A stretch of DNA of 64,000 nucleotides from Crocinitomicaceae bacterium (GCA_037189645.1 JBBCIY010000002.1:460922-524921); one strand, 5' to 3'; shown: positions 49,778-64,000, numbered from the stretch's first letter. Made by a program: numbers and translations. Notes: a model not told the origin generated them from the letters alone.

Positions 49778-49812
49778 AAAGGCTGCCTTTATAGGCAGCC
49801 TTTCTTTCATTT
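49778..49812 (+). terminator. Rho-independent terminator after the OmpA-family gene
   Basis: Perfect 10-bp inverted repeat AAAGGCTGCC (49778-49787) / GGCAGCCTTT (49794-49803), loop TTTATA, followed by CTTTCATTT. Confidence 0.6.
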
Positions 49813-49879
49813 AACTGTTTAATGTTTCACCGTAAATTATAATTATCTGATTGATTTTTTAGGACACGATCAAGCAGGA

Positions 49880-50119
49880 TCATTTTTTAGGTTGGGCGAT
49901 GTTTCCTTTATTGTTATCATATTCCCTGGTTTCGTTTTTGAAGAAAAAAGATAAAATGATCAGTAAGAAAAAAGAAACACCCAAGATGATCACGAGTGTA
50001 ATTAACGTCTTTTTTATGTTTTCCGAACTCATTATATCTATTCCCCAGATGCCCAGAATAAAATAGGTGGCAATAAAAAGAATAACAGAGGTAACAATAA
50101 TTCCAATAATATATTTCAT
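49880..50119 (-). CDS. Small two-TM membrane protein (last gene of the minus-strand module)
   Basis: 79 aa, two hydrophobic helices separated by a short loop. 20 bp downstream of the SPFH gene on the same strand. Confidence 0.35.
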   Translation of the reverse strand: MKYIIGIIVTSVILFIATYFILGIWGIDIMSSENIKKTLITLVIILGVSFFLLIILSFFFKNETREYDNNKGNIAQPKK

Positions 50120-50139
50120 TTTGACGAGTATTTATCTGG

Positions 50140-51141
50140 TTAAAGATTGTTTAACAGTTCTTTCTTCTTTTCCTCATAATCAGCAAGTGTAATAATGTTT
50201 TCGTCCAGAAGAATTTTTAGTTTTCTTAATTTTTCAGCCACACCATCAGAGTTTTTTGAGATCAGTTCATCGGTCTGATCACTGAATTTCTTGCCTAATT
50301 CCATTCCAACACCGAGTTGAATTCCGGCGCCGGCCACACCTCCTTCATTTTTTGCTGCATCGCGTAAGGCTCTCAGTTTTTCCAGTTCACTATAACTCAA
50401 ACCTGCCTCCTGCGCAGCCTGAACATCGGTAGTAATGTCGGCTATTCTGGCGATGCGTTTTTGGGTTTCGCTGTCAAATTGACTTCCATTTATTCGGAAA
50501 TCGGTTAATTCCAACCCCAGCGATGAGAAATCCTTTTTAAGGATTGAGAACAGCTTTTGGGAAATAGTATTTAACTGCGAATCTATTTCCTGAAAAGAAT
50601 ATTTTTCACTAGCAATTAAAGAAGTGATCTGCTGTGGAAAACGTTCGGAAAGAACAGTTCTCAAATCATCTGCTGTATAGTGGTTTTTGCTTCCTATTAC
50701 ATTGATAAATAAATCGTTGATGGAGATTATTTGATAGGAGAAATTGCCGTTTAACCCCAGTTCAACAGGGATGTTATAAATAGCATCAATGTATTTCAAA
50801 GGGCTTGGAGTACCCCATCCTTGATTAAGTATTTGAGCCTTCCTAAAGAAATAAATATGTAATTTATGTTCACTTTCAAAACTTTTTCTCAGATTAACTA
50901 GTGTTGTGATGAACGGATGATTATCAGTTTTGAGATTGTAAATTCCATCCTTATCAAGGATCTCTGATATTTTCCCTTCATAGACCAATACACATCCCTG
51001 ACCGGGAGCAATGATCAGCTTACTCGAATTTTTTATTTCGTCTTCTTCTGACGGAAATTTATACCAGAGTAGTTCCGGATTTTGATCTTTCCATTGAATA
51101 ACAGATGAAAGTTGTCTGCGAAATAGATTAAATAGTTTCAT
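50140..51141 (-). CDS. SPFH/Band-7 (PF13421-like, YdjI-type) protein with C-terminal SHOCT domain
   Basis: 333 aa. N-terminus MKLFNLFRRQLSSVIQWKDQNPELLWYKFP matches the Band_7_1/YdjI-type SPFH start pattern. C-terminal LADYEEKKKELLNNL is a SHOCT-like oligomerisation tail. Confidence 0.65.
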   Translation of the reverse strand: MKLFNLFRRQLSSVIQWKDQNPELLWYKFPSEEDEIKNSSKLIIAPGQGCVLVYEGKISEILDKDGIYNLKTDNHPFITTLVNLRKSFESEHKLHIYFFRKAQILNQGWGTPSPLKYIDAIYNIPVELGLNGNFSYQIISINDLFINVIGSKNHYTADDLRTVLSERFPQQITSLIASEKYSFQEIDSQLNTISQKLFSILKKDFSSLGLELTDFRINGSQFDSETQKRIARIADITTDVQAAQEAGLSYSELEKLRALRDAAKNEGGVAGAGIQLGVGMELGKKFSDQTDELISKNSDGVAEKLRKLKILLDENIITLADYEEKKKELLNNL

Positions 51142-51198
51142 AAGGTTGAATGTTTATGCGGTTTAATTTTAAACTTAAAAATGGCAGATTGGTTTTCT

Positions 51199-52557
51199 TT
51201 ATTCATACATTAAGTTATATATAGGATTGTGAAATGTATCCATCAGGTTAATTGTTTGTCCATCTGTTTCATTAACGAGCCAAACCTTTCCGTTTTGTGC
51301 TGTTAGCAGATACCCGCCTTCTACGATGGTAGCTGACGCATTACTGAACCCCTTTTCCAAAGGAACGGTCCATTTGATTTCTCCGTTTTGTGCATTTATC
51401 AGTTGAAGGTTGTAGCCGGATTCTGATGAAAGTGTAGGCTTAAAAGATATAAGTACACTTTTTTCATTATAGGCGAGTAGATTTGGAGAAAAATAGAATC
51501 GTCCGGGAGTAAAATTCGAATAAGAAATAAGCCTTGCGTTTTTAGAAGTAAAAAAATCACTGAATGAAGGATTGTCTGAGCTTTCGTTTCGGACAGTAAA
51601 TATGGCTTTTTTTGTAGGATATCCAACCTGTTGGAATTGGTTATATTTAATTAAGAAAACCCTTTCTTTGGCGTGAGGGGCTACTAATCCTGTAAATGTA
51701 TAAGCAGTTCTTTTTTGTGCTTTAGGTAATTTTTCGTTCCCTGTACTTCCGGGATATACCTTTCCAATAATCGGATAGTAATAAGGTTGCTTTCCTGTTT
51801 CGGTCAGCAGATAAAAACCATCTCCGTCGTATTCAGGAACAAAACGGATTTCTATAAATCCTGATTCCATACCCGGAAGATGATTATAGGTTTCCGGAGA
51901 AACTTCCGAGATATCATACGACTGCTGGTTGAATTTGTATAGTTTGTTCCCATTGAAAATACAGTATATATCTCCATTTTCAAATTGACGGATATCTATA
52001 TAATTGGAACTGGCGGATGAGAAGTTAATCCCTTCTATTGGCTTAGAGAAGACCTGTTTACCGTTTGAAACATCATAAATACTTATTATGGATTCCATGG
52101 ATTCTTTATAAGGGGAGACCTTTATTTTCCTTTCTTTATTTCCAAAAACACATGCGAAGGGTCTGTTGTCTGAGTTTACAAATCCAAAGACTTTTATGAC
52201 ATTTGTATCGATCTCTTCCTTTTCAGTGTCAATCGTACGACTAGGTGCCGTTTTGTTTGAAAATGATTTATCTGAAGTCGGTAAAACTGTTATATAGCTG
52301 GAAAATATCCCTATTATAACAGACCCGATTATACCTATGTATATCCATTTCTTCTGTGTATTTGCAGAAGCGGCCTGAGAAGTATTTTCAGTTGTGTGCT
52401 CATCTCCGTTGTGATGATAGTGATTGATGTTTACATCTCCGCTGTCCAGAATAAAGTGAGCTCCACAATTATTGCAGCTGTAACGGTCTCTCCTGAGTTT
52501 TGTATTCTTGACGCTCCCGCACTGAGGACATTTAATTACCTTAAATTTATCTGCCAT
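51199..52557 (-). CDS. Zinc-ribbon / TM / beta-propeller-like membrane protein (paralog 2)
   Basis: 452 aa. N-terminal CPxCG...CxxCG zinc ribbon (KCPQCGSVKNT...YSCNNCGAHF), His-rich segment, one TM (WIYIGIIGSVIIGIFSSYITVL). About 350-aa extracytoplasmic beta-rich domain with PQQ/BamB-like C-terminal repeats. Confidence 0.6.
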   Translation of the reverse strand: MADKFKVIKCPQCGSVKNTKLRRDRYSCNNCGAHFILDSGDVNINHYHHNGDEHTTENTSQAASANTQKKWIYIGIIGSVIIGIFSSYITVLPTSDKSFSNKTAPSRTIDTEKEEIDTNVIKVFGFVNSDNRPFACVFGNKERKIKVSPYKESMESIISIYDVSNGKQVFSKPIEGINFSSASSNYIDIRQFENGDIYCIFNGNKLYKFNQQSYDISEVSPETYNHLPGMESGFIEIRFVPEYDGDGFYLLTETGKQPYYYPIIGKVYPGSTGNEKLPKAQKRTAYTFTGLVAPHAKERVFLIKYNQFQQVGYPTKKAIFTVRNESSDNPSFSDFFTSKNARLISYSNFTPGRFYFSPNLLAYNEKSVLISFKPTLSSESGYNLQLINAQNGEIKWTVPLEKGFSNASATIVEGGYLLTAQNGKVWLVNETDGQTINLMDTFHNPIYNLMYE

Positions 52558-52722
52558 AGTTGTTGTATAGGTCTATTGTAAACAAATATATAAGAAACTG
52601 TTTTATTTCAATCTTTTGGAAGCAATAAAAATCATTCAGTCGCAATTTATGCAAACTTCTTTCACATTTTGCCGGTTGATGTCGTAGTAATGTGATTTCC
52701 GGCGTATCATTGTGATGGGGGA

Positions 52723-54057
52723 TTACAGTTGATTAAAGTCTGTTGAATGAACCGTTTCACCAGTACTTTTATTGATCAGCCAGGAATGTTTGTGTCCGAT
52801 AATTAAATAACCGTTTTCAGCTACTACAGCTTTTACAGTATTTACATTTTCTTCCCAAGGAATGGTCCATTTGATTTCGGCATTTTCAGCATTTATTAAT
52901 TGGAGTTGGGGAAGAGCATCAGGGGCCATTGAGGGTTTAAAGTATATCAGTACATTGTTTTTATCAAAGGTTAATACACTTGCGGAGAAGTAAAGTCGTC
53001 CAGGTGTGAAGTCAGAGAAAGAGATTACTCTTGCACGTTCTTTGGACCATGGGCGCAGAAGTACTTTTTTATAAGGAGAACGGTCCGTGAATATTCCTGA
53101 GCCGCCATAATCTTTTACCCATTCAAATCTGGGAGTATCTCTTGGAAATCCTGATAGGAAGAAGTAATTATATTTTATCAGCTGGATTTTTTCTTCAGAA
53201 AAATCCAATGACCTGGCAGAAAATCTGTAAGCGGTTCTTGTTTCCACCTGAGATGTTGTTTCTGTTATTGCTGAATCAAACTGATCTTTGTTATAGATTT
53301 TTCGGATCAGGGGATAGTAGTAGCGTTCTTTTCCACTGTTTGTCATTAATTTAAAGCCATCTCCATAATTGTCATATACGAATTCAATGAATGCAAATCC
53401 TGATTCCATATCAGGTAAATCCTTGTATGTTTCGGGAGACACTTCGGAGAAGGAGAACGATTGGGGATTGATGCTGAATAATTTTGTTTTATTGATAATG
53501 AAATACATATCTCCGTTTTCAAATTGACGGATACTGACATCGGATAATTTCGGGGCAGCTTCAATGGGTTTCATTGAAAGTTGTTTCCCGTCAACCGGGT
53601 CATAAATACCGATATGCGGAATTTTATTTCCGACTGAAGAGGAGTCGGAAATCTGATTTCCGATAACACATATAAATGATTTTTTATCCTTATTCACAAA
53701 TCCGCAGATTTTTTGAATATCCCATTTGATGACTTCTTTTTTGACCTCTTCTCTTTTGTAGGTTGAATAGGTCGTCTTGCTGGAAGGAGGGGAAGTGAAT
53801 AACGAGCTGATAATCGAATATACGATCGATACAACTATAAAGCTGAGAGTTGTATACCCGATAATTTTAAGAGTCAGAAGTTGATTTAACGGGGAACTCT
53901 GGCGGTCATTATGGTAATAATGATTGATGTTAATGTCATCATTGTCAATAAAAAAATCAGTTCCACAACTTCTGCATTGATAAAGATCAGCTTTGATTTC
54001 CGTGTTTTTGACACTTCCGCATTGTGGACATTTGATTGCTTTTATCTGTTTAGCCAT
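52723..54057 (-). CDS. Zinc-ribbon / TM / beta-propeller-like membrane protein (paralog 1)
   Basis: 444 aa with the same architecture as 51199-52557 (KCPQCGSVKNTEIKADLYQCRSCGTDF; TM LSFIVVSIVYSIISSLF). About 40-55% identical by eye across the full length, including conserved blocks IRQFENGD, SEVSPETY, DGFxL and YYYP. Confidence 0.6.
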   Translation of the reverse strand: MAKQIKAIKCPQCGSVKNTEIKADLYQCRSCGTDFFIDNDDININHYYHNDRQSSPLNQLLTLKIIGYTTLSFIVVSIVYSIISSLFTSPPSSKTTYSTYKREEVKKEVIKWDIQKICGFVNKDKKSFICVIGNQISDSSSVGNKIPHIGIYDPVDGKQLSMKPIEAAPKLSDVSIRQFENGDMYFIINKTKLFSINPQSFSFSEVSPETYKDLPDMESGFAFIEFVYDNYGDGFKLMTNSGKERYYYPLIRKIYNKDQFDSAITETTSQVETRTAYRFSARSLDFSEEKIQLIKYNYFFLSGFPRDTPRFEWVKDYGGSGIFTDRSPYKKVLLRPWSKERARVISFSDFTPGRLYFSASVLTFDKNNVLIYFKPSMAPDALPQLQLINAENAEIKWTIPWEENVNTVKAVVAENGYLIIGHKHSWLINKSTGETVHSTDFNQL

Positions 54058-54211
54058 AAAAATATAAGTCGTTATTTGTTACCAAATTTAGTAAGAAATC
54101 CACTATGGCTTATTTTGTTTTAAACGGGAATACGTTTTTTAGACGTTCTGACAAGTTATTTTTACGCTGGATTTCAGGTTAAATTCTATACTTGTATTAA
54201 TTTTACATCTG

Positions 54212-55396
54212 ATGAGTGATCTGAAGCAATACATTGTCCAACGTTCGGAAGAATTGTTTGAGAAAGTACGGGGGTATCGTGAGCACCTGCACCGTTACCC
54301 GGAATTGTCGTACCAGGAATTTGAAACGATGAAATTTGTTTCCGGTCGGCTGGCAGAACTGGGGATCGAGCACCAGGCCGGGATCGGAGGGACAGGAGTT
54401 GTCGGGATGATCCACGCATCACATCATACAGATGATATGGATGCTGTTGGGTTGCGGGCAGACATGGACGCGCTGCCGATCAAAGAAGAGAACGAAGTCC
54501 CGTACAGGTCCACGGTGGAAGGGGTGATGCACGCCTGCGGGCACGATGTGCATACGTCTGTTTTGCTGGGAGCTGCTGAAATTCTCAATGAATTGAAAGA
54601 ACAGCTGCCACATCCCGTAAAGTTGATCTTTCAGCCAGGAGAGGAAAAAAATCCGGGAGGAGCTTCACTGATGATCCGGGATAAAGTGCTGGAAAACCCG
54701 GCGGTGAGATCCATTTATGCATTGCATGTTTTTCCCGATCTTCCCGTTGGAAAGACAGGATTTAAAGGAGGACTGTACATGGCGAGCTGTGACGAAATCT
54801 ACATCACCATCCACGGAAAAGGAGGGCATGGAGCTACACCACATCAGTGTATTGACCCGATCGTGATCGGCGCGGAACTGGTTCTGAATTTGCAGACGAT
54901 CGTAAGCAGAAAGTGCGACCCGAAGATTCCGTGTGTGCTGACATTCGGCCATTTTGAAGCATTGGGAGCAACCAATGTCATTCCCCCGAAAGCGGTTTTG
55001 AAAGGAACTTTCCGCACGATGAACGAAGCATGGAGGGCAGAAGCATTGCAGCTGATCGAAAAACATGCGCGGGCGATCGTTGAAGGAAACGGCGGACGAT
55101 TGGAAATAGAGATCAGCAAAGGGTATCCGTTCCTGGAAAACGATGAGGAGCTGACCGAAGAGCTCAGGCAAAAAGCTATTGACCTGCTGGGCGCGGACCA
55201 GGTAGAGGACTTACCCATCCGGTTGACTGCAGAGGATTTCTCGTTCTATGCACAGGAAATCCCCGCTTGTTTCTTCCGCATTGGAGTGAGAAATGAAGAA
55301 AAGGGAATAACAGCCGGAGTGCATCACCCACGTTTTGACATTGATGCGAACGCGTTGAAAACAGGAATGCAGATGATGTGCCTGGCGGCTTTTTGA
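54212..55396 (+). CDS. M20D-family amidohydrolase (N-acyl-L-amino-acid amidohydrolase / hippurate hydrolase-like)
   Basis: 394 aa. Metal-binding motifs HACGHDVHTS and ...E.. of M20 peptidases. Dimerisation lid domain. Confidence 0.85.
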   Translation: MSDLKQYIVQRSEELFEKVRGYREHLHRYPELSYQEFETMKFVSGRLAELGIEHQAGIGGTGVVGMIHASHHTDDMDAVGLRADMDALPIKEENEVPYRSTVEGVMHACGHDVHTSVLLGAAEILNELKEQLPHPVKLIFQPGEEKNPGGASLMIRDKVLENPAVRSIYALHVFPDLPVGKTGFKGGLYMASCDEIYITIHGKGGHGATPHQCIDPIVIGAELVLNLQTIVSRKCDPKIPCVLTFGHFEALGATNVIPPKAVLKGTFRTMNEAWRAEALQLIEKHARAIVEGNGGRLEIEISKGYPFLENDEELTEELRQKAIDLLGADQVEDLPIRLTAEDFSFYAQEIPACFFRIGVRNEEKGITAGVHHPRFDIDANALKTGMQMMCLAAF

Positions 55397-55443
55397 ATGG
55401 CGAAACACGTAGCGATGGAAGTAAGAAGTATTTAATTGAAGAG

Positions 55444-56019
55444 ATGAATAAATTAGTGATCATATTGACTTGCCTGATCTGGTTTTCCTGCGGAAAGAAA
55501 GCCGGGGAAGAGCTTCCCGTAACGGATATTCACCACATCCAGGACTTGGGGACGCTGGCAACGACCGAATATACATTTGGAAAGATCGTTCACCTGAACG
55601 ATGATAAGGACTGGTACCGGTTCGGGGACAGGAAGATACTGATCAGGGTGAAGGCAAAAGCGAAAGCGGGTATTGACCTGACCAAAATGAATGACAAGGA
55701 CGTGGAAGTGACCGATGAAGGAAAAACAGTTAAATTGCTGCTTCCCGCTCCTGAAATCATCTCGTTTGAGATGAATCCAAATGACATCCGCACTGAAATG
55801 ACAGATGTGAACGGGTTCCGGTTTGAATTTTCCCAGGAAGAGAAAATGAAAGTGCTGCAATTGGGAGAAAAGAGCATTCGGGAAGAAATGAAAGAGAGTA
55901 ATATTTTAACGGACGCAAAAAGGAACGCACGTGTTTTTCTCAAAGATTTTTACCAGGACATGGGTTATGAACATGTAATTATTGACTTTAAACCTTCAGA
56001 AGAAAGTGGCAGGAAATAA
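55444..56019 (+). CDS. DUF4230-like lipoprotein
   Basis: Lipoprotein signal (LTCLIWFSCGKK). The KAKAGIDLTKM block is typical of DUF4230. Start chosen at the internal Met (55444) of the 55378 ORF. Confidence 0.5.
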   Translation: MNKLVIILTCLIWFSCGKKAGEELPVTDIHHIQDLGTLATTEYTFGKIVHLNDDKDWYRFGDRKILIRVKAKAKAGIDLTKMNDKDVEVTDEGKTVKLLLPAPEIISFEMNPNDIRTEMTDVNGFRFEFSQEEKMKVLQLGEKSIREEMKESNILTDAKRNARVFLKDFYQDMGYEHVIIDFKPSEESGRK

Positions 56020-56659
56020 AAGAGCAGAAATTATCCGGCTGATTATCAATGGTACGGTCATCGCTGCAATAATTGTTGGAGTCGTATTTCTTGTGCGAAA
56101 ATGCAACGCGGGGGAAAATTCGGAATGGGAACTGGAAAATCATCCGCTGAAAATTGAGAACATCCGTAAAATCGCTGAATTGAGCACGGTCAGCTACCTG
56201 GATGAAGTGGTGGTCGATACCATTGAATACTACGACGGGCTGGGCGAGCAGATTACGGGTAACGTAAAAAAGCTGTCGGACATTGAGAACTGGAAATATT
56301 CCATTCGCGGATCAGCAATTAAACGCCGCCTGACGCTGATCGTTGGCGGAGAGGTCCGTTACGGTTTCGACTTAAAAGACACCACTTTCCATACACGTTT
56401 CTCGGGAGATTCTGTTTTTGTTACGGTTGCCCAACCGAAAATCCTGGATATTCTTGTTCCTCCATCGAAAACAACCGTGTTCCAGGAGCACGGTAAATGG
56501 CACGACAGTGCACGGAGAAAGCTGCAGCAGAAAGCTGTCAACACACTGTCGCATCGTTCTAAGCAGCTGGGACTGGAGGAAAAATCAAAGAAACAGCTGG
56601 AATCCCTGCTTCAAAAGCTGATAACCGAAAAACGAACTTTAATTATGACGTACCAATGA
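55982..56659 (+). CDS. DUF4230-like membrane-anchored protein (tandem paralog)
   Basis: 225 aa. N-terminal TM (IINGTVIAAIIVGVVFLV). The RYGFDLKD block parallels the upstream gene. Overlaps the previous gene by 38 bp. Confidence 0.5.
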   Translation: MTLNLQKKVAGNKRAEIIRLIINGTVIAAIIVGVVFLVRKCNAGENSEWELENHPLKIENIRKIAELSTVSYLDEVVVDTIEYYDGLGEQITGNVKKLSDIENWKYSIRGSAIKRRLTLIVGGEVRYGFDLKDTTFHTRFSGDSVFVTVAQPKILDILVPPSKTTVFQEHGKWHDSARRKLQQKAVNTLSHRSKQLGLEEKSKKQLESLLQKLITEKRTLIMTYQ

Positions 56660-57066
56660 AAAGACTGGCTATCCTGTTGATGTTGACGTTTGCAGCCGGT
56701 TGCTCGAAAGAGATACAGAACAACCGTGCACTGGACGGAGACTGGAAATCGGTAGATTTGTCAGTGTTTGACTACAGCGGATTAAAGACCAAACCGGAAT
56801 GTACAGGCAATATGCAGTTTAAAAGCGATGGTAAGAGATCCAGCACAGGAACGTATCGTTTCAGTCTTTACTTCGAGTACAACCAGTCGCCATTGAATTT
56901 TATTGAGCAGGGAACTTATTATATTGAGAATAAAAATAACATCAAGCTGCTTTCATCTGACGGAGAGGAAAAGATCGTAACTTTGGTCTACCATACGAAA
57001 GAAGACCTGGTGCTGGATTTTCCGAATGTTCACTACCTGGCATATTATATTGTATTAAAAAAATGA
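56656..57066 (+). CDS. Hypothetical lipoprotein (lipocalin-like size)
   Basis: 136 aa. Lipobox LTFAAGCSK. No family recognised. Confidence 0.45.
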   Translation: MKRLAILLMLTFAAGCSKEIQNNRALDGDWKSVDLSVFDYSGLKTKPECTGNMQFKSDGKRSSTGTYRFSLYFEYNQSPLNFIEQGTYYIENKNNIKLLSSDGEEKIVTLVYHTKEDLVLDFPNVHYLAYYIVLKK

Positions 57067-57080
57067 ACAGATAAATACTT

Positions 57081-57506
57081 ATGAATAGACTACTACTGAT
57101 TGTGAGCTGCCTGCTCATTTGTGCATGCCCTGCCTTGTCCCAGGAAAAAACCACAGACCGGGCTTTCAGCGAAGATTCCATATTCGGAATTACCGATGAG
57201 ATCGCTTCTTACCCGGGAGGATACAAGGAACTGATGCACTTCCTTTCTCAGAATATCAAGTATCCGGAAACTGCTCTTGAAAATGGCATTGAAGGAAGAG
57301 TTGATTTAAGATTCATCATTGAAAAAGACGGGAGTGTCGGAGAAGTTCAGGTACTGAGGGGAGTTCCGGGCTGCCCTGAGTGTGACCGGGAAGCTGTCCG
57401 GGTAGTCAGGCTGATGCCTGAGTGGAACCCTGCAAAAGTAGATGAGAATCCTGTCCGGAGTTATTTTCTCCTGCCGGTCAATTATAAAATGGTAACATTT
57501 AAATGA
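57081..57506 (+). CDS. TonB C-terminal-domain (energy transducer TonB-like) protein
   Basis: 141 aa. Signal peptide then TonB_C signature (ASYPGGYKELMHFLSQNIKYPETALENGIEGRVDLRFIIEKDGSVGEVQVLRG...). Confidence 0.7.
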   Translation: MNRLLLIVSCLLICACPALSQEKTTDRAFSEDSIFGITDEIASYPGGYKELMHFLSQNIKYPETALENGIEGRVDLRFIIEKDGSVGEVQVLRGVPGCPECDREAVRVVRLMPEWNPAKVDENPVRSYFLLPVNYKMVTFK

Positions 57507-58777
57507 TAACTGCTACTTTACTTATGAAACTCACTTTTGTTATACTACTTCTTTCTTTTTCTCCACTCCGCGCCCAGGTGGCGGGTTGTACGGATCCATT
57601 GGCCAGTAACTACAATGAATTTGCCAGTATCAATAACGGAACGTGCGCTTATTCCACCGTTGAGCTTGTTCCCGATATAAGTATGGTGCTGCCTGCTGAA
57701 ATGAATGAAACATCCGGATTACTGCTCCTTAACGACCGGCTTTTCACCCATAATGACGATACGGATACGAACCTGTATTCATTCGATCCCTACAATCCGT
57801 CCGATTTTACCATTTTTCCCATTCCTTTCGTGACAAACAAAGATTGGGAGGATATAGCAGAAGATGAAACGTACATTTACATCGGTGATTTCGGGAACAA
57901 TGGAACTGGAAACAGGACAGACCTGAGGATTTTCCGGATCGCTAAGTCAGATCTGGAGCAGAATCCGGTTGCAGACACGATCCTGTTCAGTTATGAAGAC
58001 CAGACAGATTTTGCTTCGCATGACCCCAACACTACTGATTTTGATTGTGAAGCGTTTATCGTTACAGAAAATAAGATTTACCTTTTTACGAAGGAGTGGA
58101 TCAGTAAAAAAACGACCGTTTATGAACTGGAGAAAACTCCCGGTACACACATTGCATACATGAAAAGCACGTTTAATGTACAGGGACTGATTACGGGGGC
58201 AACTCACCTGGAAGACCGGCAGCTGGTCGTGCTTTCGGGGTATTCTATAGTTTTACAGCCATTTGTTTACTTGTTATATGACTTCCCGGACAATGATTTT
58301 TTTGGTGGCAATAAAAGAAAGATTCCGATCAGTCTGCCTTTTCACCAGGTGGAAGGAATCACTACCTCAGACGGGCTTCATTATTTCCTTTCGAATGAGC
58401 AATTCAACCAGGGAAGCATTGCGATTGATCCAAAGATCCTGCATCTTGACCTCGAATCTTATCTTTCGGCTTATTTATCGGCTGATCCCTTATCTGTACC
58501 GGAGCTCCATGGAAAAGAGCTTTCTTCCATTCTGGTTTATCCCAATCCTGCAAGTGATTTTATTGTCGTCAGTATCCCGGAAACAAGCATGAAGAACGAT
58601 GAATTATCAATGGATATTGTTGATCCGGCCGGGAAAAAAATAATGACTCAGCAGGTTAGTTGCCCACTGACTGTTATCGACCTAGGTAATCTCTCGCATT
58701 CGCCCGGAATATTCCATGTGCTGATCCGGAATAAACCGGACATGGTTGTTTCAAGGTTGCCCGTTTACATTCATTAA
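57503..58777 (+). CDS. Secreted hypothetical protein, T9SS type-A cargo
   Basis: 424 aa with a signal peptide and beta-propeller-like body. C-terminal Por_Secre_tail (SILVYPNPASDFIVVSIPE...GIFHVLIRNKPDMVVSRLPVYIH). Confidence 0.7.
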   Translation: MITATLLMKLTFVILLLSFSPLRAQVAGCTDPLASNYNEFASINNGTCAYSTVELVPDISMVLPAEMNETSGLLLLNDRLFTHNDDTDTNLYSFDPYNPSDFTIFPIPFVTNKDWEDIAEDETYIYIGDFGNNGTGNRTDLRIFRIAKSDLEQNPVADTILFSYEDQTDFASHDPNTTDFDCEAFIVTENKIYLFTKEWISKKTTVYELEKTPGTHIAYMKSTFNVQGLITGATHLEDRQLVVLSGYSIVLQPFVYLLYDFPDNDFFGGNKRKIPISLPFHQVEGITTSDGLHYFLSNEQFNQGSIAIDPKILHLDLESYLSAYLSADPLSVPELHGKELSSILVYPNPASDFIVVSIPETSMKNDELSMDIVDPAGKKIMTQQVSCPLTVIDLGNLSHSPGIFHVLIRNKPDMVVSRLPVYIH

Positions 58778-58873
58778 GAGAGGTATGGAAGAATAAATCA
58801 GTGTTTGCTGAACAGGCAAGAATTTATTTTTTCTATATTTATTCTTCATTGTAATCGACGTAACTGCTACTTT

Positions 58874-59927
58874 ATGAAAACGATCACTGGTTCGCCCCTG
58901 GTTTTTTGGTTATGTTGCTACATCAGCGGTATTCTTGTTTCATTGACAGGAGAATGGCTGTTACTTTCCGTGATTTCCATAGCTGTCTTTTTAGCTGGTG
59001 TACTTCTTCCGTATCTGTCCGCTACTCTGAGAGCGTACATTGTTTTCGCTCCCTTGTTCTTCATTACAGGCTCGTTGTCGATGGAACGCGTGTTCCCGAA
59101 GCAGAATGACGCATTGACCAACGGAGAAAACTATTACGTCGGAACGATCGAACAGCAGCTCACCTCAGGAAAAATATGGAGCACCAACCTTATTCGGCTT
59201 CAATCAGGGATGCGGAAGAATGGAAAATGGGAACAGACCAATGAACGGGTGTTGCTGCTGACAGAAAACGGCGAAATCTTATTGAACCAGAATGATGTGA
59301 TCCTTTTTAAGACCGGGTTCAAAGAAATTACGACAGCGAACAATCCTGGCGAGTTCAATGCAAAAATGTACTGGTATTCCAAAGGAATAAGATACCAGGG
59401 ATTCGGGGCATCAGAGCAGATCAAGCTCATAGAACCCGTCCCTTTGGGATGGTTTGACCAGTTGCTGGAATCGGTGAGAAACTATTCAACAGCAGTGCTG
59501 GACAGGTGGGTAGGTCAGAAAGATGCTCCGCTGATAAAAGCGATTCTGCTGGGCGATAAGAGTGACCTGGATACGGAAACAAAGCGTGTCTTTACAAATA
59601 CAGGCGCGATGCACATGCTGGCTGTTTCCGGAATGCACATCGGGCTGATTGTCGTGCTCCTCGGAGGGATCTTCAAAGTGCTGTTCTTTTACAGGGGAAG
59701 GACCATTGCCTTGTGGCTGATGATAGTCCTCTTGTGGTTTTATGCCTTTTTAACCGGTTTTTCAGCTTCTGTTACCCGTGCGGTTGTGATGTTTACCATA
59801 CTTAATCTGGGCCGGGTTTATGCGAAGAGGGTACCAGCCGGTCAATGCGTTGTCTGCTGCTGCATTTTTCATCCTGGTATGGGACCCCAAAGAGGAGAGA
59901 TTTCAAACCTTTTGTAGGGAAATTTAG
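58874..59927 (+). pseudogene. comEC: comEC/rec2 (DNA internalisation competence channel), 5' portion only: frameshifted near 59830 and truncated at the island junction
   Basis: N-terminal TMs and the Competence domain hallmark (TGAMHMLAVSGMHIGLIVVLLGG...FSASVTRAVVMFTIL). After ...RVYAKR the conserved continuation (Y)QPVNALSAAAFFILVWDPKE is readable only in the +1 frame from about 59832. Both frames stop by 59927. The expected ~300-aa C-terminal half with the MBL domain is absent. Confidence 0.7.
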
Positions 59928-60004
59928 AGGATATTTTGAAAAATGAAAAGGAATTAAATCATTATTTTTTATAATAATTTTATATTGCAAACAACAAATA
60001 GATT

Positions 60005-61000
60005 TTAGTGTACAGAGAAATCTAAAAAATAATTCTCATCATCTATTTTATAAAATGTAATATCTGTACGTCCATACTTTAGAAGATCTTCTTTTCGGAC
60101 AAATGCTCCATTACTTAGCCCAAGACGGAATCTAAAATATTCTCCGATTAAAGAATTGTTAAGTGTGGAGTGAATGGCCTTACCGCCATCTTGAGCTCGC
60201 ACACAAATAATTTGTTTGTCATCGTCTGTAATAACTGTGAATGTTTCATAACGCTCAGGAAAGAATCCAGAGCGCCCTATGGCAGCTGGGATGTTGATAT
60301 AAGCCTGATTGGGATTTCTTCCCTCTCTTTGTCCCCAGTTCAAGCCTGATCTAGTTGGAACCTCACCATATTTATCTACCAGTGGCAATATAACTTTAGG
60401 TAAATTAAGTATATCTGTACTAATAGCAGTTTTTGCTTCTCCTGCTTCAGAACTTAATCTTTCAGTTTCCTGAACTGGTTTGCGATCAAATATATCAATC
60501 AGTTCATGTACATTCTCAGCATTACAGTTAATGGACTCATCTTCCAAACTCTTATAATAATCATAACACTTTAATGAATCTTGAAGTGTTAAAACTTCTC
60601 TCATTGAAGGGCTGAATGCGTTTTGAGTATAATTTGCAGACCCTACAAATCCTAAAATGGGGTCATCATCTTTATACCAAGAATATACCTTTGAATGGAC
60701 TGGTGGACGTCCAAAAATATAGTTGCATTTAAAATTAACGTCAAATTTTGATGTTTGTAATTCCTTAAAGGCTGTGTGATTTTTTTGTTCAATACCATCA
60801 AAAGGACACATTCCGACAATTAATTCTATAGACAAATCCTTTTTCAGCCTTTTAGAAAATTCAATGTGACGCATTGCCATCAAGGCTGTAGCATACCCCG
60901 AAACGATATAGAGTTTATTGGCATTGTGCTGAACTAGTGGTTCAATCAACGCTTTGTCAAACAGTTCACTGGTTATCATTGTACTCATACTTTCAAACAC
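60005..61000 (-). CDS. PLD-family (NgoFVII/BfiI-like) restriction endonuclease candidate
   Basis: 331 aa. N-terminal PLD/Nuc-like HKD-type motif HSKVYSWYKDDDPILGFVGSANYTQNAF (H-x-K...GSxN). C-terminal half consistent with a B3-like DNA-binding domain. Overlaps the upstream C5-MTase gene by 16 bp on the same strand. Confidence 0.6.
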   Translation of the reverse strand: MFESMSTMITSELFDKALIEPLVQHNANKLYIVSGYATALMAMRHIEFSKRLKKDLSIELIVGMCPFDGIEQKNHTAFKELQTSKFDVNFKCNYIFGRPPVHSKVYSWYKDDDPILGFVGSANYTQNAFSPSMREVLTLQDSLKCYDYYKSLEDESINCNAENVHELIDIFDRKPVQETERLSSEAGEAKTAISTDILNLPKVILPLVDKYGEVPTRSGLNWGQREGRNPNQAYINIPAAIGRSGFFPERYETFTVITDDDKQIICVRAQDGGKAIHSTLNNSLIGEYFRFRLGLSNGAFVRKEDLLKYGRTDITFYKIDDENYFLDFSVH

Positions 61001-62073
61001 TCTTCAACTGGATGCAAATGGTTGAGTTCAATATTTGGTTCAGTACTGTCATACGTGATGCCTGCAAATGTCTTTAAAATTGCTTCAAATATAATTTTGG
61101 CGCCTTTTACGGGAACAGCCATGCCAATTTGTTTTCTAACACTTTCCTTAGAGCCATGAAAAACAAAATTATCAGGAAAAGTTTGAAGTCTTGCTCTTTC
61201 TCTGTTTGTTAATGCTCTGTTTTCTTCCCAATGGTAAACATGTGTCCCTCCGCCACCGCTTCCTGTGACTGTATATGCGGGTTTATTAGGATCAAGTCTT
61301 TTATATATTTGACTTATCTGAGCACCTTTAATATTGAGTTGTAAATGTGCTGGCAACTGAGCTGTAAAAGCATTTTCACCAGGTTTAATAAACTTTAATC
61401 TTTCTACAACAATTTCAGATTGCTTTGTTAGCTCATTATTAGGAGAATTAGTTTCAATTGGCGGATTTTCAATTGCTTGTTTGGCAGTAATTATTTTGGG
61501 ATTTTTAATAACAGGAACATTGAACTTAAGTCCTAAATCTTTACGAATACCAACAATTATAATACGGTGTCGCGCTTGAGGAACTTCATAATTTTCAAAT
61601 TTATACAAATGTGCCGTAACATTGTACCCTGTATTAATTAAATCTTTTAAAATCATCTGAAAGGACTTGCCGTCATTGGAATTTTTTAGTCCTCCAACAT
61701 TTTCTGCCAAAAAGAAAGCTGGCTGAAATTTTTTCAAAACCTTAACACCATATGAATATAAAGGTCCAAAAACACCATTCATTCCTTTTTGCTCACCAAC
61801 TATTGAAAAATCATTACAGGGGAAACCAAAAGCAAGGCCATCTATTTCTGTAAGCTTATCAATATCTAATTTCCTTACATCTTTACAAATAACCGATTTG
61901 ATATTATCGGGGCAAATATTTTTTCCATAAGTTTCACAAGTGTCCTTGTCAAAATCATTAGCCCATTCATGTTTTATAGAATACTCTTCATTATCATGTA
62001 TGAACCCTGCTGACATCGCTCCTAAAGCAATTCCACCTGGTCCGCAAAATAATTCACCCAATCGAAAATTCAT
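60985..62073 (-). CDS. DNA (cytosine-5)-methyltransferase
   Basis: 362 aa. Motif I FCGPGG. Motif IV GFPCNDFS (PC dipeptide). Motif VI ENV (FLAENVGGL). Motif VIII QARHRIIIVG. Motif X-like GMAVPV. Confidence 0.9.
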   Translation of the reverse strand: MNFRLGELFCGPGGIALGAMSAGFIHDNEEYSIKHEWANDFDKDTCETYGKNICPDNIKSVICKDVRKLDIDKLTEIDGLAFGFPCNDFSIVGEQKGMNGVFGPLYSYGVKVLKKFQPAFFLAENVGGLKNSNDGKSFQMILKDLINTGYNVTAHLYKFENYEVPQARHRIIIVGIRKDLGLKFNVPVIKNPKIITAKQAIENPPIETNSPNNELTKQSEIVVERLKFIKPGENAFTAQLPAHLQLNIKGAQISQIYKRLDPNKPAYTVTGSGGGGTHVYHWEENRALTNRERARLQTFPDNFVFHGSKESVRKQIGMAVPVKGAKIIFEAILKTFAGITYDSTEPNIELNHLHPVEECLKV

Positions 62074-62358
62074 ATCTATTTTTTTAAATTAAACAAATAA
62101 CTGGTAAAACAGTGCTTTTTTATTTAAACATTTTTGAAAAAAATTTTCGCACAATACAAAAGTATAATTAATATCTGTTGTATTTCCAAAGCATGTATAA
62201 ACGTTTTCAACCAATAATGTTAATATCATTATTACCAATTATCACTGTGACTGAATACAAAATTATTTTAGCTCTACGTAATCTATTTACGGTTTTAGTA
62301 ATTTTTTTAGTATATTTCTTAAATTTTAAAGTAATTTATTCTTATATGAATTTATATC

Positions 62359-63135
62359 ATGCCTCAAATTCAAATTACACTCAGTCCTGAACAATGTGAG
62401 AAAGCAATTCAGTTTGGTGAAGAAATAATAATGAAAAATGCTCAAAGCCCTAAAGACTTTGGAAGCAGGCATATCAGAGATTATTCTGATAATGTTGCAG
62501 ATATAATTGAAGGGAAAATCGCAGAGATTGGGTTTGCTCAGTTTTATGAACTTAAAACAAATAATAGGATAATTTTAGATTTTAATGTATATCCTGGCTC
62601 ATTAACAATAGATTATGGGCAAGACTTCGATAAGCTTGTCATCAACTCAAAAGTATACTTTGTAAAGAATCGTATTGATATAAAAGCTACTAAAATATAT
62701 TCTAAATGGCTTTTAGTCGAAAGTCATAAGTTTTGGTCTGATGCCTACATATTAGTAAAAGTAGACATCCCCAATGATAGCGAATCCAATCGTAATAAAT
62801 TATATAGCTGGATCAAAAATCACGGTGTGAGAATTACTATATCTGGATTTGCATACTATTTTGATTTAATTGACAACATTACCAAGAAACCTTTTATAGA
62901 GTTCAGCCAAAATGAACGATTATTCAAACCAGACAAGTTAAGTAATATTGCTCATTGGTCTCCAGATTCAATAAAGGAGTTTATAAGTGAAAACCCTCAT
63001 GATTTTCCACCGATAGGACCAATTTTGAAAGCCCCAAAAAATTTTGGTATACCAATCTCCAAACTTAGAAACTCGGATAAAGACTGGGCTATTTTTTTTA
63101 GTTGGGTTCATGCTTCCTTAGAAGAGGAAATTTAA
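62359..63135 (+). CDS. Hypothetical protein in R-M island (possible PD-(D/E)xK-like nuclease or accessory factor)
   Basis: 258-aa ORF divergent from the MTase gene and convergent with vsr, overlapping it by 4 bp. Contains D...IDIK (QDFDKLVINSKVYFVKNRIDIKATK), compatible with but not proof of a PD-(D/E)xK core. No confident family. Confidence 0.45.
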   Translation: MPQIQITLSPEQCEKAIQFGEEIIMKNAQSPKDFGSRHIRDYSDNVADIIEGKIAEIGFAQFYELKTNNRIILDFNVYPGSLTIDYGQDFDKLVINSKVYFVKNRIDIKATKIYSKWLLVESHKFWSDAYILVKVDIPNDSESNRNKLYSWIKNHGVRITISGFAYYFDLIDNITKKPFIEFSQNERLFKPDKLSNIAHWSPDSIKEFISENPHDFPPIGPILKAPKNFGIPISKLRNSDKDWAIFFSWVHASLEEEI

Positions 63136-63539
63136 TTCTTTATCATATCCAAAATAAAATCAGAAAAGCTACCGTTTTTAATTTGGCATTCCCATATTAC
63201 TATAACCTTATATTTCATTTCTTTTAATTTACTGTGGGCAACAGAATCTTTTTTTATGTTTTTTTCTATTTTATCGGACCAGTATTCAACATTGGATTTG
63301 GGCAAACGATAATATTTGCATTGTTCATGTCCGTGCCAAAAACATCCATTTACAAAAATTGCTGTATTATATTTTTTTAGTATAATGTCTGGTTTTCCAG
63401 GAAGTTTTTTATCATGTAGCCTAAAACGCAGACCATGGGAAAATAGAAATTTACGCACAATAATTTCAGGTATCGTATTTTTTGATCTGATACGGCTCAT
63501 ATTGTAGCTTCTTTGCTCGTTAGTTTTGTTATCGGCCAT
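63132..63539 (-). CDS. vsr: Very-short-patch-repair DNA mismatch endonuclease Vsr
   Basis: 135 aa. RSYNMSRIRSKNTIPE and FVNGCFWHGHE motifs are diagnostic of Vsr. Confidence 0.85.
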   Translation of the reverse strand: MADNKTNEQRSYNMSRIRSKNTIPEIIVRKFLFSHGLRFRLHDKKLPGKPDIILKKYNTAIFVNGCFWHGHEQCKYYRLPKSNVEYWSDKIEKNIKKDSVAHSKLKEMKYKVIVIWECQIKNGSFSDFILDMIKN

Positions 63540-63923
63540 GTGTAAATTTAATTTTTCTTATAGACAGAGAAAGGTAACAAGTTGTTTAATTATCATTATT
63601 TTAGAAAGAAGAATGATAAATGATTCATTTTTAACTTTATCATACTATTTTCCGTGGCGATGGAGTCCGTTAATATGACCTCTACTGTGCTCTCATAAGC
63701 TAATTTTGCGGATTTGCTTATCAAGCAACAGTATTATCTTAAAAATACTTCTTTCTGGAGCCAAATAATCTAAATTCGTATTCCAAATTTAGTATTTTAT
63801 TAACAATGGATATAAGTTTTGAAGAAATCTGCTCTCTGGAATGTAGAGTGTTATTAAGTGGCTGCCAGGATAGTACCAGCTATCGCCAGCACCATCCATC
63901 TGCCTATGCATTTCATATTAGGT

Positions 63924-64000
63924 TTATCTTTTGATTAATTTTTTTACAATATACGTATTATTGGCAAAGATACGGACAAAATAAGTTCCTGCCGCATAAG
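63924..64000 (-). CDS. 3' end (C-terminal 24 aa + stop) of a T9SS type-A cargo gene continuing beyond the window
   Basis: Minus-strand reading from 63998 gives YAAGTYFVRIFANNTYIVKKLIKR* (stop at 63924-63926). This is a classic Por_Secre_tail terminus (GxYFVRI...KKLIK). Confidence 0.5.
   Translation of the reverse strand, partial: YAAGTYFVRIFANNTYIVKKLIKR

What the first reader, a model, noticed from the sequence alone, without database searches (positions are those of the whole stretch)
59928..63923. AT-rich R-M/Vsr island sits exactly where the competence channel gene comEC breaks off
comEC (58874-59927) is intact through the Competence domain, then frameshifts and ends where base composition switches to AT-rich. 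The next ~4 kb encodes a C5-cytosine MTase, a PLD-family nuclease, an unknown protein and Vsr. The right flank is the 3' end of an unrelated convergent T9SS cargo gene, with no comEC MBL-domain remnant. A restriction-modification island appears to have inserted into, or deleted part of, the DNA-uptake channel gene. That would be a neat case of a selfish defence module knocking out natural transformation. No integrase or transposase is visible, so the mobilisation mechanism is unknown.
Basis: partly seen in the sequence, partly recalled or inferred. Interest (0 to 1): 0.75.

Follow-up and report, generated by a model that had tools for sequence, protein, structure and literature searches.

The report
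Restriction-modification island truncating the comEC gene
In this Taishania-like flavobacterium, a foreign AT-rich block of about 4 kb carrying a restriction-modification system and a Vsr repair gene replaces the second half of the DNA-uptake channel gene comEC, which is a real but fairly ordinary kind of strain-specific gene loss.

Summary
The core observation holds. A metagenomic relative (L001, 93.6% nt identity over 5.7 kb) has an intact 648-aa ComEC. Homology to the window stops exactly at 59887 (codon 338), where GC falls from about 0.45 to 0.32.

comEC also has a +1 frameshift at 59804, the only coding indel in 9.4 kb aligned. Its dN/dS is 0.09, so inactivation is recent.

- The Competence domain is cut at about 110 of 270 positions, not intact.
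- This ComEC lineage has no Pfam-detectable MBL domain, so a missing remnant means nothing.
- The right-flank T9SS gene is not the ancestral neighbour, so the island's right edge and full size are unknown.

The island holds four genes:
- an NgoFVII-type PLD/B3 restriction endonuclease
- a C5 methyltransferase
- Vsr
- an "unknown" protein that is a predicted PD-(D/E)xK nuclease, linked to NgoFVII-type enzymes in four other contexts

I found no integrase, target duplication, inverted repeats or tRNA in the visible 4 kb. The same module sits in unrelated contexts elsewhere, never at comEC, so the hit looks incidental. R-M-linked rearrangements and mobile elements disrupting competence genes are both documented. 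Natural competence of this organism is untested.

The parts
58874..59887 (+). comEC remnant, covering codons 1-338 of an ancestral 648. It has DUF4131 plus the first ~110 of 270 positions of the Competence domain, and is a pseudogene.
   Evidence: Pfam and NCBIfam (TIGR00361 scores 84 bits against a cut-off of 190). tblastn of intact P0036. Alignment to L001 ends at 59887. dN/dS over codons 1-310 is 0.09.
59804..59804 (+). +1 bp insertion (cttAatctgg) that shifts the comEC frame at codon 310.
   Evidence: Pairwise alignment with L001. It is the only indel inside a coding region in 9.4 kb aligned. The same frameshifted tail occurs in protein P0001, which is recorded from both NCBI and Logan assemblies.
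59888..60004 (.). Left junction and a 117-bp AT-rich spacer (GC 0.22). Homology to the relative stops after ...GGTATGGGACCC.
   Evidence: No similarity to L001 or to the DNA downstream of the REase gene in L005.
60005..61000 (-). NgoFVII-type Type II restriction endonuclease, with an N-terminal PLD nuclease domain (HSK...GSAN motif) and a C-terminal B3-like DNA-binding domain.
   Evidence: Pfam PF09565 (1.2e-40) and PF20731 (1.5e-38). PADLOC REase_II. PDB 4rct R.NgoVII, C-terminal domain only. The motif was read from the translation.
60985..62073 (-). C5-cytosine DNA methyltransferase. It overlaps the REase gene by 16 bp, which suggests one operon.
   Evidence: Pfam PF00145 (7e-76), TIGR00675. 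PADLOC MTase_II (7e-119). The closest solved structure is M.HaeIII.
62074..62358 (.). 285-bp divergent intergenic region (GC 0.20) between the MTase gene and the 258-aa gene. No controller-protein ORF is present.
62359..63135 (+). 258-aa predicted PD-(D/E)xK-fold nuclease from an uncharacterised family. It recurs as a neighbour of NgoFVII-type REases.
63132..63539 (-). Vsr very-short-patch T:G mismatch endonuclease. Its 3' end overlaps the 258-aa gene by 4 bp, and the two genes converge.
   Evidence: Pfam PF03852 (3.5e-32), TIGR00632 at 138.6 bits against a cut-off of 97.85. Aligns to E. coli Vsr 1cw0 with the PGxPD and GCFWH motifs kept.
63540..63923 (.). 384-bp non-coding stretch. It contains a patch of host-like GC (about 63840-63919, GC 0.47-0.50) with a 20-codon minus-strand ORF (63854-63916, MKCIGRWMVLAIAGTILAAT*) that starts 7 nt after the T9SS gene stop. 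This may be the stub of a truncated host gene and so the true right junction, but that is unverified.
   Evidence: No similarity to L001. No Rfam or tRNA hit.
63924..64000 (-). Last 24 codons plus stop of a T9SS-cargo-type gene that runs off the window. It is not the orthologue of the gene downstream of comEC in L001 and L004.
   Evidence: Sequence read. Compared with the L001 and L004 C-termini. GC 0.286, the 3.6th percentile of host 77-bp windows.

Best explanation
SHOWN
- This strain carries horizontally acquired, AT-rich DNA that begins at 59888.
- That DNA starts with a complete-looking NgoFVII-type Type II restriction-modification unit.
- It takes the place of the 3' 310 codons of comEC and of at least the start of the DNA that ancestrally followed it.
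- What remains of comEC is a recent pseudogene. It is truncated inside the channel-forming Competence domain and has one further frameshift.

INFERRED: HOW THE MODULE WORKS
- The C5 methyltransferase marks the host's own sites.
- The PLD/B3 endonuclease cuts unmarked DNA at the same sites. By family this is probably a GCSGC-like site, but that is untested.
- Vsr repairs the T:G mismatches that deamination of 5-methylcytosine creates.
- The divergent 258-aa PD-(D/E)xK protein is a second nuclease that works with the PLD enzyme.

INFERRED: HOW IT ARRIVED
- Arrival was by illegitimate recombination, or by recombination anchored in homology on one side only, with loss of resident DNA. This is the 'substitution' type of R-M-linked rearrangement, not site-specific integration.
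- The hit on comEC was incidental.
- If this bacterium was transformable, the truncation would abolish DNA uptake.
For: - **Empty-site comparison.** L001 has the same nine upstream genes in the same order and an intact comEC. Nucleotide identity is 93.6% up to 59887 and absent beyond it.
- **Ancestral state.** More distant Taishania contigs also have full-length comEC.
- **Domain cut.** The Competence domain is covered over 1-110/270 here, against 1-268/270 in P0036.
- **Recent loss.** dN/dS is 0.09, like the neighbouring genes at 0.03-0.23, and there is only one coding indel.
- **Foreign composition**.
- **Strain-specific.** The 90%-identity clusters of the three island proteins found in the collection each have a single member, recorded from this genome's NCBI assembly and a Logan assembly.
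- **Gene identities**. Catalytic motifs are intact (HSK/GSAN, FCGPGG/PC/ENV, PGKPD/GCFWH), read.
- **No mobility signatures.** No target-site duplication or terminal inverted repeats beyond AT-rich chance matches, no tRNA, and no integrase or transposase ORF.
- **Lost neighbour.** The downstream neighbour seen in L001 and L004 is not at the right flank.
- **Module moves as a unit.** It is found in unrelated contexts.
- **Junction is real.** It is reproduced in two assemblies through the P0001 tail.
- **Known framework.** R-M-linked substitutions and insertions without mobility genes are described in PMC2853133.
Against: - The right junction is not identified. The window ends 77 bp into the next gene, and I could not retrieve the rest of the 524,921-bp contig.
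- I therefore cannot separate 'replacement with deletion' from 'larger island with the comEC 3' half on its far side'.
- The last 77 bp are AT-rich, which fits foreign DNA continuing. A host-like GC patch at 63840-63919 points the other way.
- The recombination mechanism is inferred only from the absence of mobility signatures.
- Recognition sequence, enzyme activities and the organism's competence are all untested.
- The two assemblies may come from the same reads.
Confidence: 0.65

Rival explanations
1. The visible 4 kb is only the left end of a much larger integrated element, such as an ICE, conjugative transposon or genomic island. It inserted into comEC by site-specific recombination. The integrase, the far att site and the intact comEC 3' half would lie beyond position 64000.
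For: - The right-flank T9SS gene is not the ancestral neighbour, and its visible 77 bp are as AT-rich as the island.
- In L005 the homologous R-M module lies next to RteC, a regulator typical of Bacteroidota conjugative transposons.
- Genomic islands inserted in comEC are documented in S. pneumoniae (PMC12378983).
Against: - No integrase, relaxase or transfer gene lies in the 4.1 kb seen.
- There is no repeat of the junction sequence.
- A host-like GC patch at 63840-63919 sits just before the T9SS gene.
- The comEC frameshift 84 bp upstream of the junction is not something a clean integration explains, though it could be later decay.
Confidence: 0.2
2. The junction is an assembly chimera. DNA of a different, AT-rich organism was joined to this contig inside comEC.
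For: - The lineage is known mostly from metagenome-assembled genomes.
- The GC change is abrupt.
- I could not inspect reads.
Against: - Protein P0001, whose last nine residues are encoded across and beyond the junction, is recorded from both an NCBI assembly and a Logan assembly. So are the MTase, the 258-aa protein and Vsr.
- No repeat at the junction could mislead an assembler.
- An independent frameshift in comEC fits a true pseudogene.
- The closest homologues of the module come from contigs with Bacteroidota-type neighbours, RteC and T9SS cargo genes.
Confidence: 0.05
3. The disruption is adaptive for the island. The R-M module, or its carrier, preferentially lands in or is retained in comEC, because loss of transformation stops the host from curing it by recombination with island-free DNA.
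For: - The conceptual framework and precedents exist for prophages, ICEs and islands in competence genes, including comEC (PMC4774983 and PMC12378983).
- ComEC is essential for transformation in another flavobacterium, Riemerella anatipestifer (PMC8459023).
- comEC was under purifying selection until recently.
Against: - This is a single occurrence.
- The homologous module in four other contexts is never at comEC.
- No site-specific machinery is seen.
- Competence is not demonstrated for this genus.
- An R-M unit already enforces its own retention by post-segregational killing (general knowledge, not tested here).
Confidence: 0.07
4. This comEC is a decayed paralogue. A functional full-length copy exists elsewhere in the genome, so nothing is lost.
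For: Only 64 kb of the genome can be seen.
Against: - The copy is the positional orthologue. Nine upstream genes are collinear with L001 and L002 at 93-96% identity.
- No second ComEC-like sequence is in the window.
- The related contigs seen here each show one comEC, but none is a complete genome, so copy number in this lineage is not established.
Confidence: 0.03

Closest known systems
NgoFVII / AspCNI cluster of PLD-family Type II restriction enzymes (GCSGC) with their C5 methyltransferases
   Same: The REase has both Pfam domains that define the family, the NgoFVII N-terminal PLD domain and the C-terminal B3-like domain, at E about 1e-40. It keeps the HxK...GSxN motif and is translationally coupled to a C5 MTase. 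PMC4081073 describes the cluster.
   Different: The recognition site was not determined. This version carries a conserved extra PD-(D/E)xK gene and a Vsr gene. A 39%-identical M+R pair on a Bacillus cytotoxicus plasmid lacks any annotated homologue of the extra gene within 4 kb.
CglI / NgoAVII ATP-dependent restriction systems (M + R + DEAD-helicase N/H subunit)
   Same: The R-protein has the same PLD + B3-like architecture. The only PDB sequence match is R.NgoVII, 4rct. Both are three-gene systems in which the PLD protein has a partner (PMC4267653).
   Different: The partner here is a 258-aa PD-(D/E)xK-fold protein with no ATPase or helicase domain. No helicase gene is present in the island.
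R-M-linked genome rearrangements (Furuta, Abe and Kobayashi 2010, PMC2853133)
   Same: Comparison of close relatives shows a strain-specific R-M unit with a compositional break and loss of resident DNA. No mobility gene is next to it.
   Different: That paper's categories are defined from both junctions: long target duplication, inverted-repeat transposon-like units, tRNA-integrating units and allelic substitution. Only the left junction is visible here, so the category cannot be assigned firmly.
Mobile elements that disrupt competence genes, for example the genomic island in S. pneumoniae comEC and others tabulated in PMC12378983; concept in PMC4774983
   Same: A horizontally acquired block interrupts a core DNA-uptake gene.
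   Different: The documented cases are prophages, ICEs, transposons or islands with their own integration machinery, and many hit the same gene repeatedly. Here no such machinery is seen, the event is a single case, and the host's competence is unknown.
Dcm-Vsr pairing (C5 methyltransferase with very-short-patch repair endonuclease)
   Same: A canonical Vsr, above the curated cut-offs and alignable to E. coli Vsr, lies within 1.1 kb of a C5 MTase.
   Different: Vsr is not part of the conserved module. None of the homologous modules in L005, L006, L011 or the JGI contig has a Vsr. It appears to have been added separately.

Membership tests
ComEC/Rec2 (functional DNA-uptake channel) | N-terminal DUF4131/OB domain | tested here: met
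   PF13567, E 1.5e-14, profile positions 8-162 of 165.
ComEC/Rec2 (functional DNA-uptake channel) | Complete multi-pass Competence domain (PF03772) and a whole-protein score above the curated cut-off | tested here: not met
   PF03772 is covered only over 1-110 of 270. TIGR00361 scores 84.1 bits against a cut-off of 190. Intact relative P0036 covers 1-268 of 270. The reading frame is broken at 59804 and homology ends at 59887.
ComEC/Rec2 (functional DNA-uptake channel) | C-terminal metallo-beta-lactamase nuclease domain | tested here: not met
   Absent in the window. Also not detected by Pfam in intact P0036 or the L003 ComEC at E<=1, so this is a lineage trait and not a result of the truncation.
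NgoFVII-type PLD Type II restriction-modification system | REase with NgoFVII PLD domain plus B3-like C-terminal DNA-binding domain | tested here: met
   PF09565 at 138.9 bits and PF20731 at 132.2 bits, both against a cut-off of 23.8.
NgoFVII-type PLD Type II restriction-modification system | PLD catalytic HxK...GSxN motif | tested here: met
   The sequence ...PPVHSKVYSW...GFVGSANYT... is read from the translation.
NgoFVII-type PLD Type II restriction-modification system | Adjacent cognate C5 methyltransferase | tested here: met
   PF00145 at 256 bits. The genes overlap by 16 bp.
NgoFVII-type PLD Type II restriction-modification system | Recognition of GCSGC and cleavage activity | not testable with these tools
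   There are zero GCSGC sites in the island, but only about 0.85 are expected at this GC content, so this says nothing.
CglI/NgoAVII ATP-dependent restriction system | DEAD/SF2 helicase-like N/H subunit encoded next to the R-protein | tested here: not met
   No helicase or ATPase ORF lies in 59888-63923. The third gene has a PD-(D/E)xK fold.
Vsr very-short-patch repair endonuclease | Vsr domain above curated thresholds with catalytic-region motifs | tested here: met
   PF03852 at 110.5 bits (cut-off 27) and TIGR00632 at 138.6 bits (cut-off 97.85). Alignment to 1cw0 keeps PGxPD and GCFWH.
PD-(D/E)xK nuclease superfamily (258-aa protein) | Restriction-endonuclease-like alpha/beta core fold | tested here: inconclusive
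PD-(D/E)xK nuclease superfamily (258-aa protein) | Conserved D ... (D/E)xK acidic/lysine motif | tested here: met
   D89, D107, K109 and E121 are invariant in 11 sequences spanning 37-73% identity.
Self-mobile element (IS, transposon, integrative island, ICE) | Integrase, transposase or recombinase gene | tested here: not met
   None among the ORFs of 59888-64000. This applies only to the visible 4.1 kb.
Self-mobile element (IS, transposon, integrative island, ICE) | Target-site duplication, terminal inverted repeats, or a tRNA/att target | tested here: not met
   Only short AT-rich matches at chance level. No tRNA in the window. The right end is not located, so the test is incomplete.
Competence-gene-targeting genetic parasite (anti-curing strategy) | Recurrent insertion of the same element type into the competence gene | tested here: not met
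   The homologous module occurs in L005/L006, L011/L012, a JGI contig and L017/L018 with other neighbours. None is at comEC.

The most novel reading that the evidence does not exclude
The conserved 258-aa PD-(D/E)xK protein might not be a spare restriction enzyme. It could be an obligate partner of the PLD/B3 endonuclease, or the module's own break-making 'homing-like' nuclease. In that case REase, MTase and nuclease would form an integrase-free unit that mobilises itself, which would explain how it landed inside comEC without any recombinase. Loss of DNA uptake would then shield it from being cured by transformation.
Probability: 0.07. Interest if true: 0.75.

Novelty: new member of a known kind. 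Interest (0 to 1): 0.35.

Why it matters
This is a clean, comparison-backed example of a defence island costing its host a core DNA-uptake gene, in the Crocinitomicaceae-like flavobacteria where competence has hardly been studied. It adds one data point to the debate on conflict between mobile or selfish DNA and natural transformation. On its own it does not show targeting or a fitness effect.

The more useful by-product concerns the "unknown" gene. In this Bacteroidota clade, NgoFVII-type PLD restriction enzymes repeatedly travel with an uncharacterised PD-(D/E)xK nuclease. That same domain also occurs fused to UvrD-like helicases and to a C5 methyltransferase. This suggests a two-nuclease variant of a poorly characterised restriction family, which could be tested biochemically.

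Tried and rejected
**Retrieving DNA beyond position 64000**
- Exact look-ups of Vsr, P0001 and the MTase in the contig index all failed.
- The genome-contig scan returned only two other Taishania MAGs, so this genome is not a species representative there.
- The metagenome scan gave only a 52% relative and a 28-residue fragment.
- I tried to recover the right-flank T9SS protein from its 24 visible residues. The query was too short.

**P0037 as a possible second comEC disruption**
- Rejected. Its odd tail KIGRAHV is the Illumina adapter at a contig end.

**Mobility and RNA signatures**
- Repeat search for target duplications or inverted repeats found only AT-rich chance matches.
- Rfam, tRNA and promoter/terminator scans found nothing informative.

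**Is the T9SS gene part of the module?**
- The module also sits beside a T9SS gene in L005 and L011.
- Rejected. Those T9SS proteins are unrelated apart from the sorting domain.

**The 258-aa protein**
- Direct PDB sequence search, Foldseek against PDB, the phage collection and IMG/VR gave no useful hit.
- The weak Pfam GvpD P-loop hit, below its cut-off, was disregarded because the fold and motif point to a nuclease.

**Error in my own work**
- My translation used the wrong frame and should be ignored. The correct frame was read by hand.

Full report
**1. What is in the sequence**

The ORF map and the Pfam and NCBIfam scans show a comEC-like gene starting at 58874. After it come four genes:
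- 60005-61000(-), an NgoFVII-type restriction endonuclease (PF09565 PLD domain plus PF20731 B3-like domain)
- 60985-62073(-), a C5-cytosine methyltransferase that overlaps the REase gene by 16 bp
- 62359-63135(+), a 258-aa protein with no family assignment
- 63132-63539(-), Vsr

The window ends with the last 24 codons of a minus-strand gene whose tail (YAAGTYFVRIFANNTYIVKKLIKR*, stop at 63924-63926) looks like a T9SS sorting domain.

GC is 0.323 for 59888-63923, against 0.443 +/- 0.029 (minimum 0.362) for host 4-kb windows. The tetranucleotide distance to bulk is 0.478, against a median of 0.189. The compositional break is real.

**2. The empty site**

The 90%-identity cluster of the truncated ComEC (P0001) also contains a 648-aa member, P0036. 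Its contig L001 (Logan SRR33913860) has the same nine upstream genes in the same order, an intact comEC, and then a convergent T9SS gene.

blastn aligns L001 3850-9550 to window 54188-59887 at 93.6% identity, and nothing aligns beyond that. The base-level alignment shows identity up to ...GGTATGGGACCC and unrelated sequence afterwards.

tblastn of P0036 finds residues 1-310 in one frame and 310-338 in the next. Residues 339-648 are nowhere in the window.

More distant Taishania contigs (63% and 52% ComEC identity) also have full-length genes of 647-650 aa. Intact comEC is therefore the ancestral state.

The 90%-identity clusters of the MTase, the 258-aa protein and Vsr each have a single member, recorded from this genome's NCBI assembly and a Logan assembly. 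The REase sequence as I delimited it is not in the collection.

**3. State of comEC**

- The cut falls inside the Competence domain, not after it. PF03772 is covered over 1-110/270 here, against residues 224-490 (1-268/270) in P0036.
- There is one further lesion, a 1-bp insertion at 59804. It is the only indel inside a coding region in 9.4 kb of alignment with L001. The other three indels are intergenic. General indel noise in the assembly is therefore an unlikely cause.
- dN/dS of codons 1-310 against L001 is 0.09, within the range of the neighbouring genes (0.03-0.23). The gene was under purifying selection for nearly all of the divergence, so it died recently.
- Intact ComEC of this lineage has no Pfam-detectable MBL domain.

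**4. The right side is unresolved**

In L001, and in the more distant L004, the T9SS gene downstream of comEC ends ...PVKLIIQ* or ...PVKLVIQ*. The gene at the window's right edge ends differently, and L001's downstream DNA has no match in the window.

At least the comEC 3' half, the intergenic DNA and the 3' end of the ancestral neighbour are therefore missing or displaced. Two weak clues point in opposite directions:
- The last 77 bp have GC 0.286. That is the 3.6th percentile of host windows but typical of the island.
- A host-like patch at 63840-63919 (GC 0.47-0.50) holds a 20-codon ORF resembling a signal peptide or membrane helix, starting 7 nt after the T9SS stop. It could be the stub of a truncated host gene.

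I could not obtain DNA beyond 64000.

**5. Mobility**

Within 59888-64000 there is no integrase or transposase, no tRNA, no Rfam element, and no target duplication or terminal inverted repeat above AT-rich chance level.

DNA from the MTase gene through the 258-aa gene (61027-63127) is 72.5% identical to two ENA metagenome contigs (L005 and L006). There the same REase-MTase-258aa module, in the same arrangement, sits next to RteC.

In L011/L012 and a JGI contig the order is M, then R, then the 253/255-aa homologue, all co-directional. In L017/L018 the homologue lies 5 bp after the REase gene.

The neighbours differ in every case and none is comEC. The T9SS genes beside the module in L005 and L011 are unrelated to each other.

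The module therefore moves as a unit without a constant mobility gene. This matches the R-M-linked rearrangements catalogued by Furuta et al. (PMC2853133).

I infer, but have not shown, that it arrived by illegitimate recombination, or by recombination anchored in homology on one side only, with loss of resident DNA.

**6. The 'unknown' protein**

- It belongs to a family with 358 representatives at the 50%-identity level.
- Eleven members spanning 37-73% identity keep D89, D107-x-K109 and E121 invariant.
- An AlphaFold model from that alignment has pLDDT 88.
- The domain also occurs at the N-terminus of UvrD-like helicases of about 1,100 aa. Part of it is fused to a C5 methyltransferase.
- All five members at or above 49% identity whose context I could see lie next to an NgoFVII-type REase (window).
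- A 40% member sits alone in a phage-like contig with terminase and Mom genes.
- A 39%-identical M+R pair on a Bacillus cytotoxicus plasmid has no such annotated gene nearby.

It is best read as a second nuclease functionally tied to this clade of PLD restriction enzymes. It is not the helicase-type partner of the related CglI/NgoAVII systems (PMC4267653).

Vsr is not part of the conserved module. It is a canonical Vsr of the kind that accompanies C5 methyltransferases.

**7. Interpretation and comparison**

The REase family is the partly characterised NgoFVII/AspCNI cluster (GCSGC; PMC4081073).

Mobile elements that disrupt competence genes are a recognised theme. Examples include a genomic island in S. 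pneumoniae comEC (PMC12378983; PMC4774983).

ComEC is essential for transformation in the flavobacterium Riemerella anatipestifer (PMC8459023). Nothing is known about competence in this genus.

With a single occurrence and no sign of targeting, the simplest reading is an incidental hit. It would abolish DNA uptake if the strain was competent.

**8. Rivals**

| Rival | Confidence | Main points |
|---|---|---|
| Larger integrated element whose integrase and the comEC 3' half lie beyond the window | 0.2 | Cannot be excluded without the rest of the contig |
| Assembly chimera | 0.05 | The junction-spanning protein tail and three of the four island proteins are recorded from two assemblies; no repeat at the junction |
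| Adaptive, targeted knock-out | 0.07 | Single case; module never at comEC elsewhere |
| Decayed paralogue | 0.03 | Contradicted by collinearity with L001 and L002 |

**9. Verdict**

Several details were wrong: the domain was not intact, the MBL expectation did not apply, and the right boundary is not established. The evolutionary story of a selfish knock-out is not demonstrated.

This is a new instance of known phenomena and is of moderate interest. The recurrent PLD plus PD-(D/E)xK pairing is the most testable novelty.

Noticed in passing
window 49808-54187: This is a second strain-specific insertion of 4.4 kb (GC 0.359). It is absent from both relatives L001 and L002 and lies between an OmpA-family gene and an M20 peptidase gene. 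It holds four minus-strand genes: a 79-aa membrane protein (weak SieB-like hit), an SPFH/Band-7 protein with a SHOCT tail, and two paralogous ~450-aa proteins with an N-terminal zinc ribbon and a membrane helix. It may be another defence or exclusion module.
   Followed up: partly
window about 42000-46000: A long array of diverged repeats of about 110-130 bp. The first 133 bases of L001 hit many positions in this region. It has the most deviant tetranucleotide composition in the window. It is probably a gene built from repeated domains.
   Followed up: no
window 62359-63135; proteins P0073, P0098, P0112, P0195: The 258-aa nuclease-like domain also occurs as the N-terminal domain of UvrD-like SF1 helicases of about 1,100 aa. 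Its first ~120 residues are fused to a C5 DNA methyltransferase in P0195. This points to an uncharacterised nuclease family used in several defence-like architectures.
   Followed up: partly
L002 8701-9549 (protein P0037): A database 'truncated ComEC' of 282 aa is an artefact. Its tail KIGRAHV translates the Illumina adapter AGATCGGAAGAGCACACGTC at the end of a Logan contig.
   Followed up: yes
window 63854-63916 (-): A 20-codon ORF (MKCIGRWMVLAIAGTILAAT*) lies in a host-like GC patch 7 nt downstream of the T9SS gene stop. It is either a small membrane peptide or the N-terminal stub of a gene cut by the island's right junction.
   Followed up: partly
L001, L003 and L004, downstream of comEC: The DNA after comEC varies among relatives. 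L001 has a T9SS cargo gene, L004 has a 207-aa gene and then a T9SS gene, and L003 has a cysteine-desulfurase-like gene. The comEC 3' flank may therefore be a generally variable spot in this lineage.
   Followed up: partly
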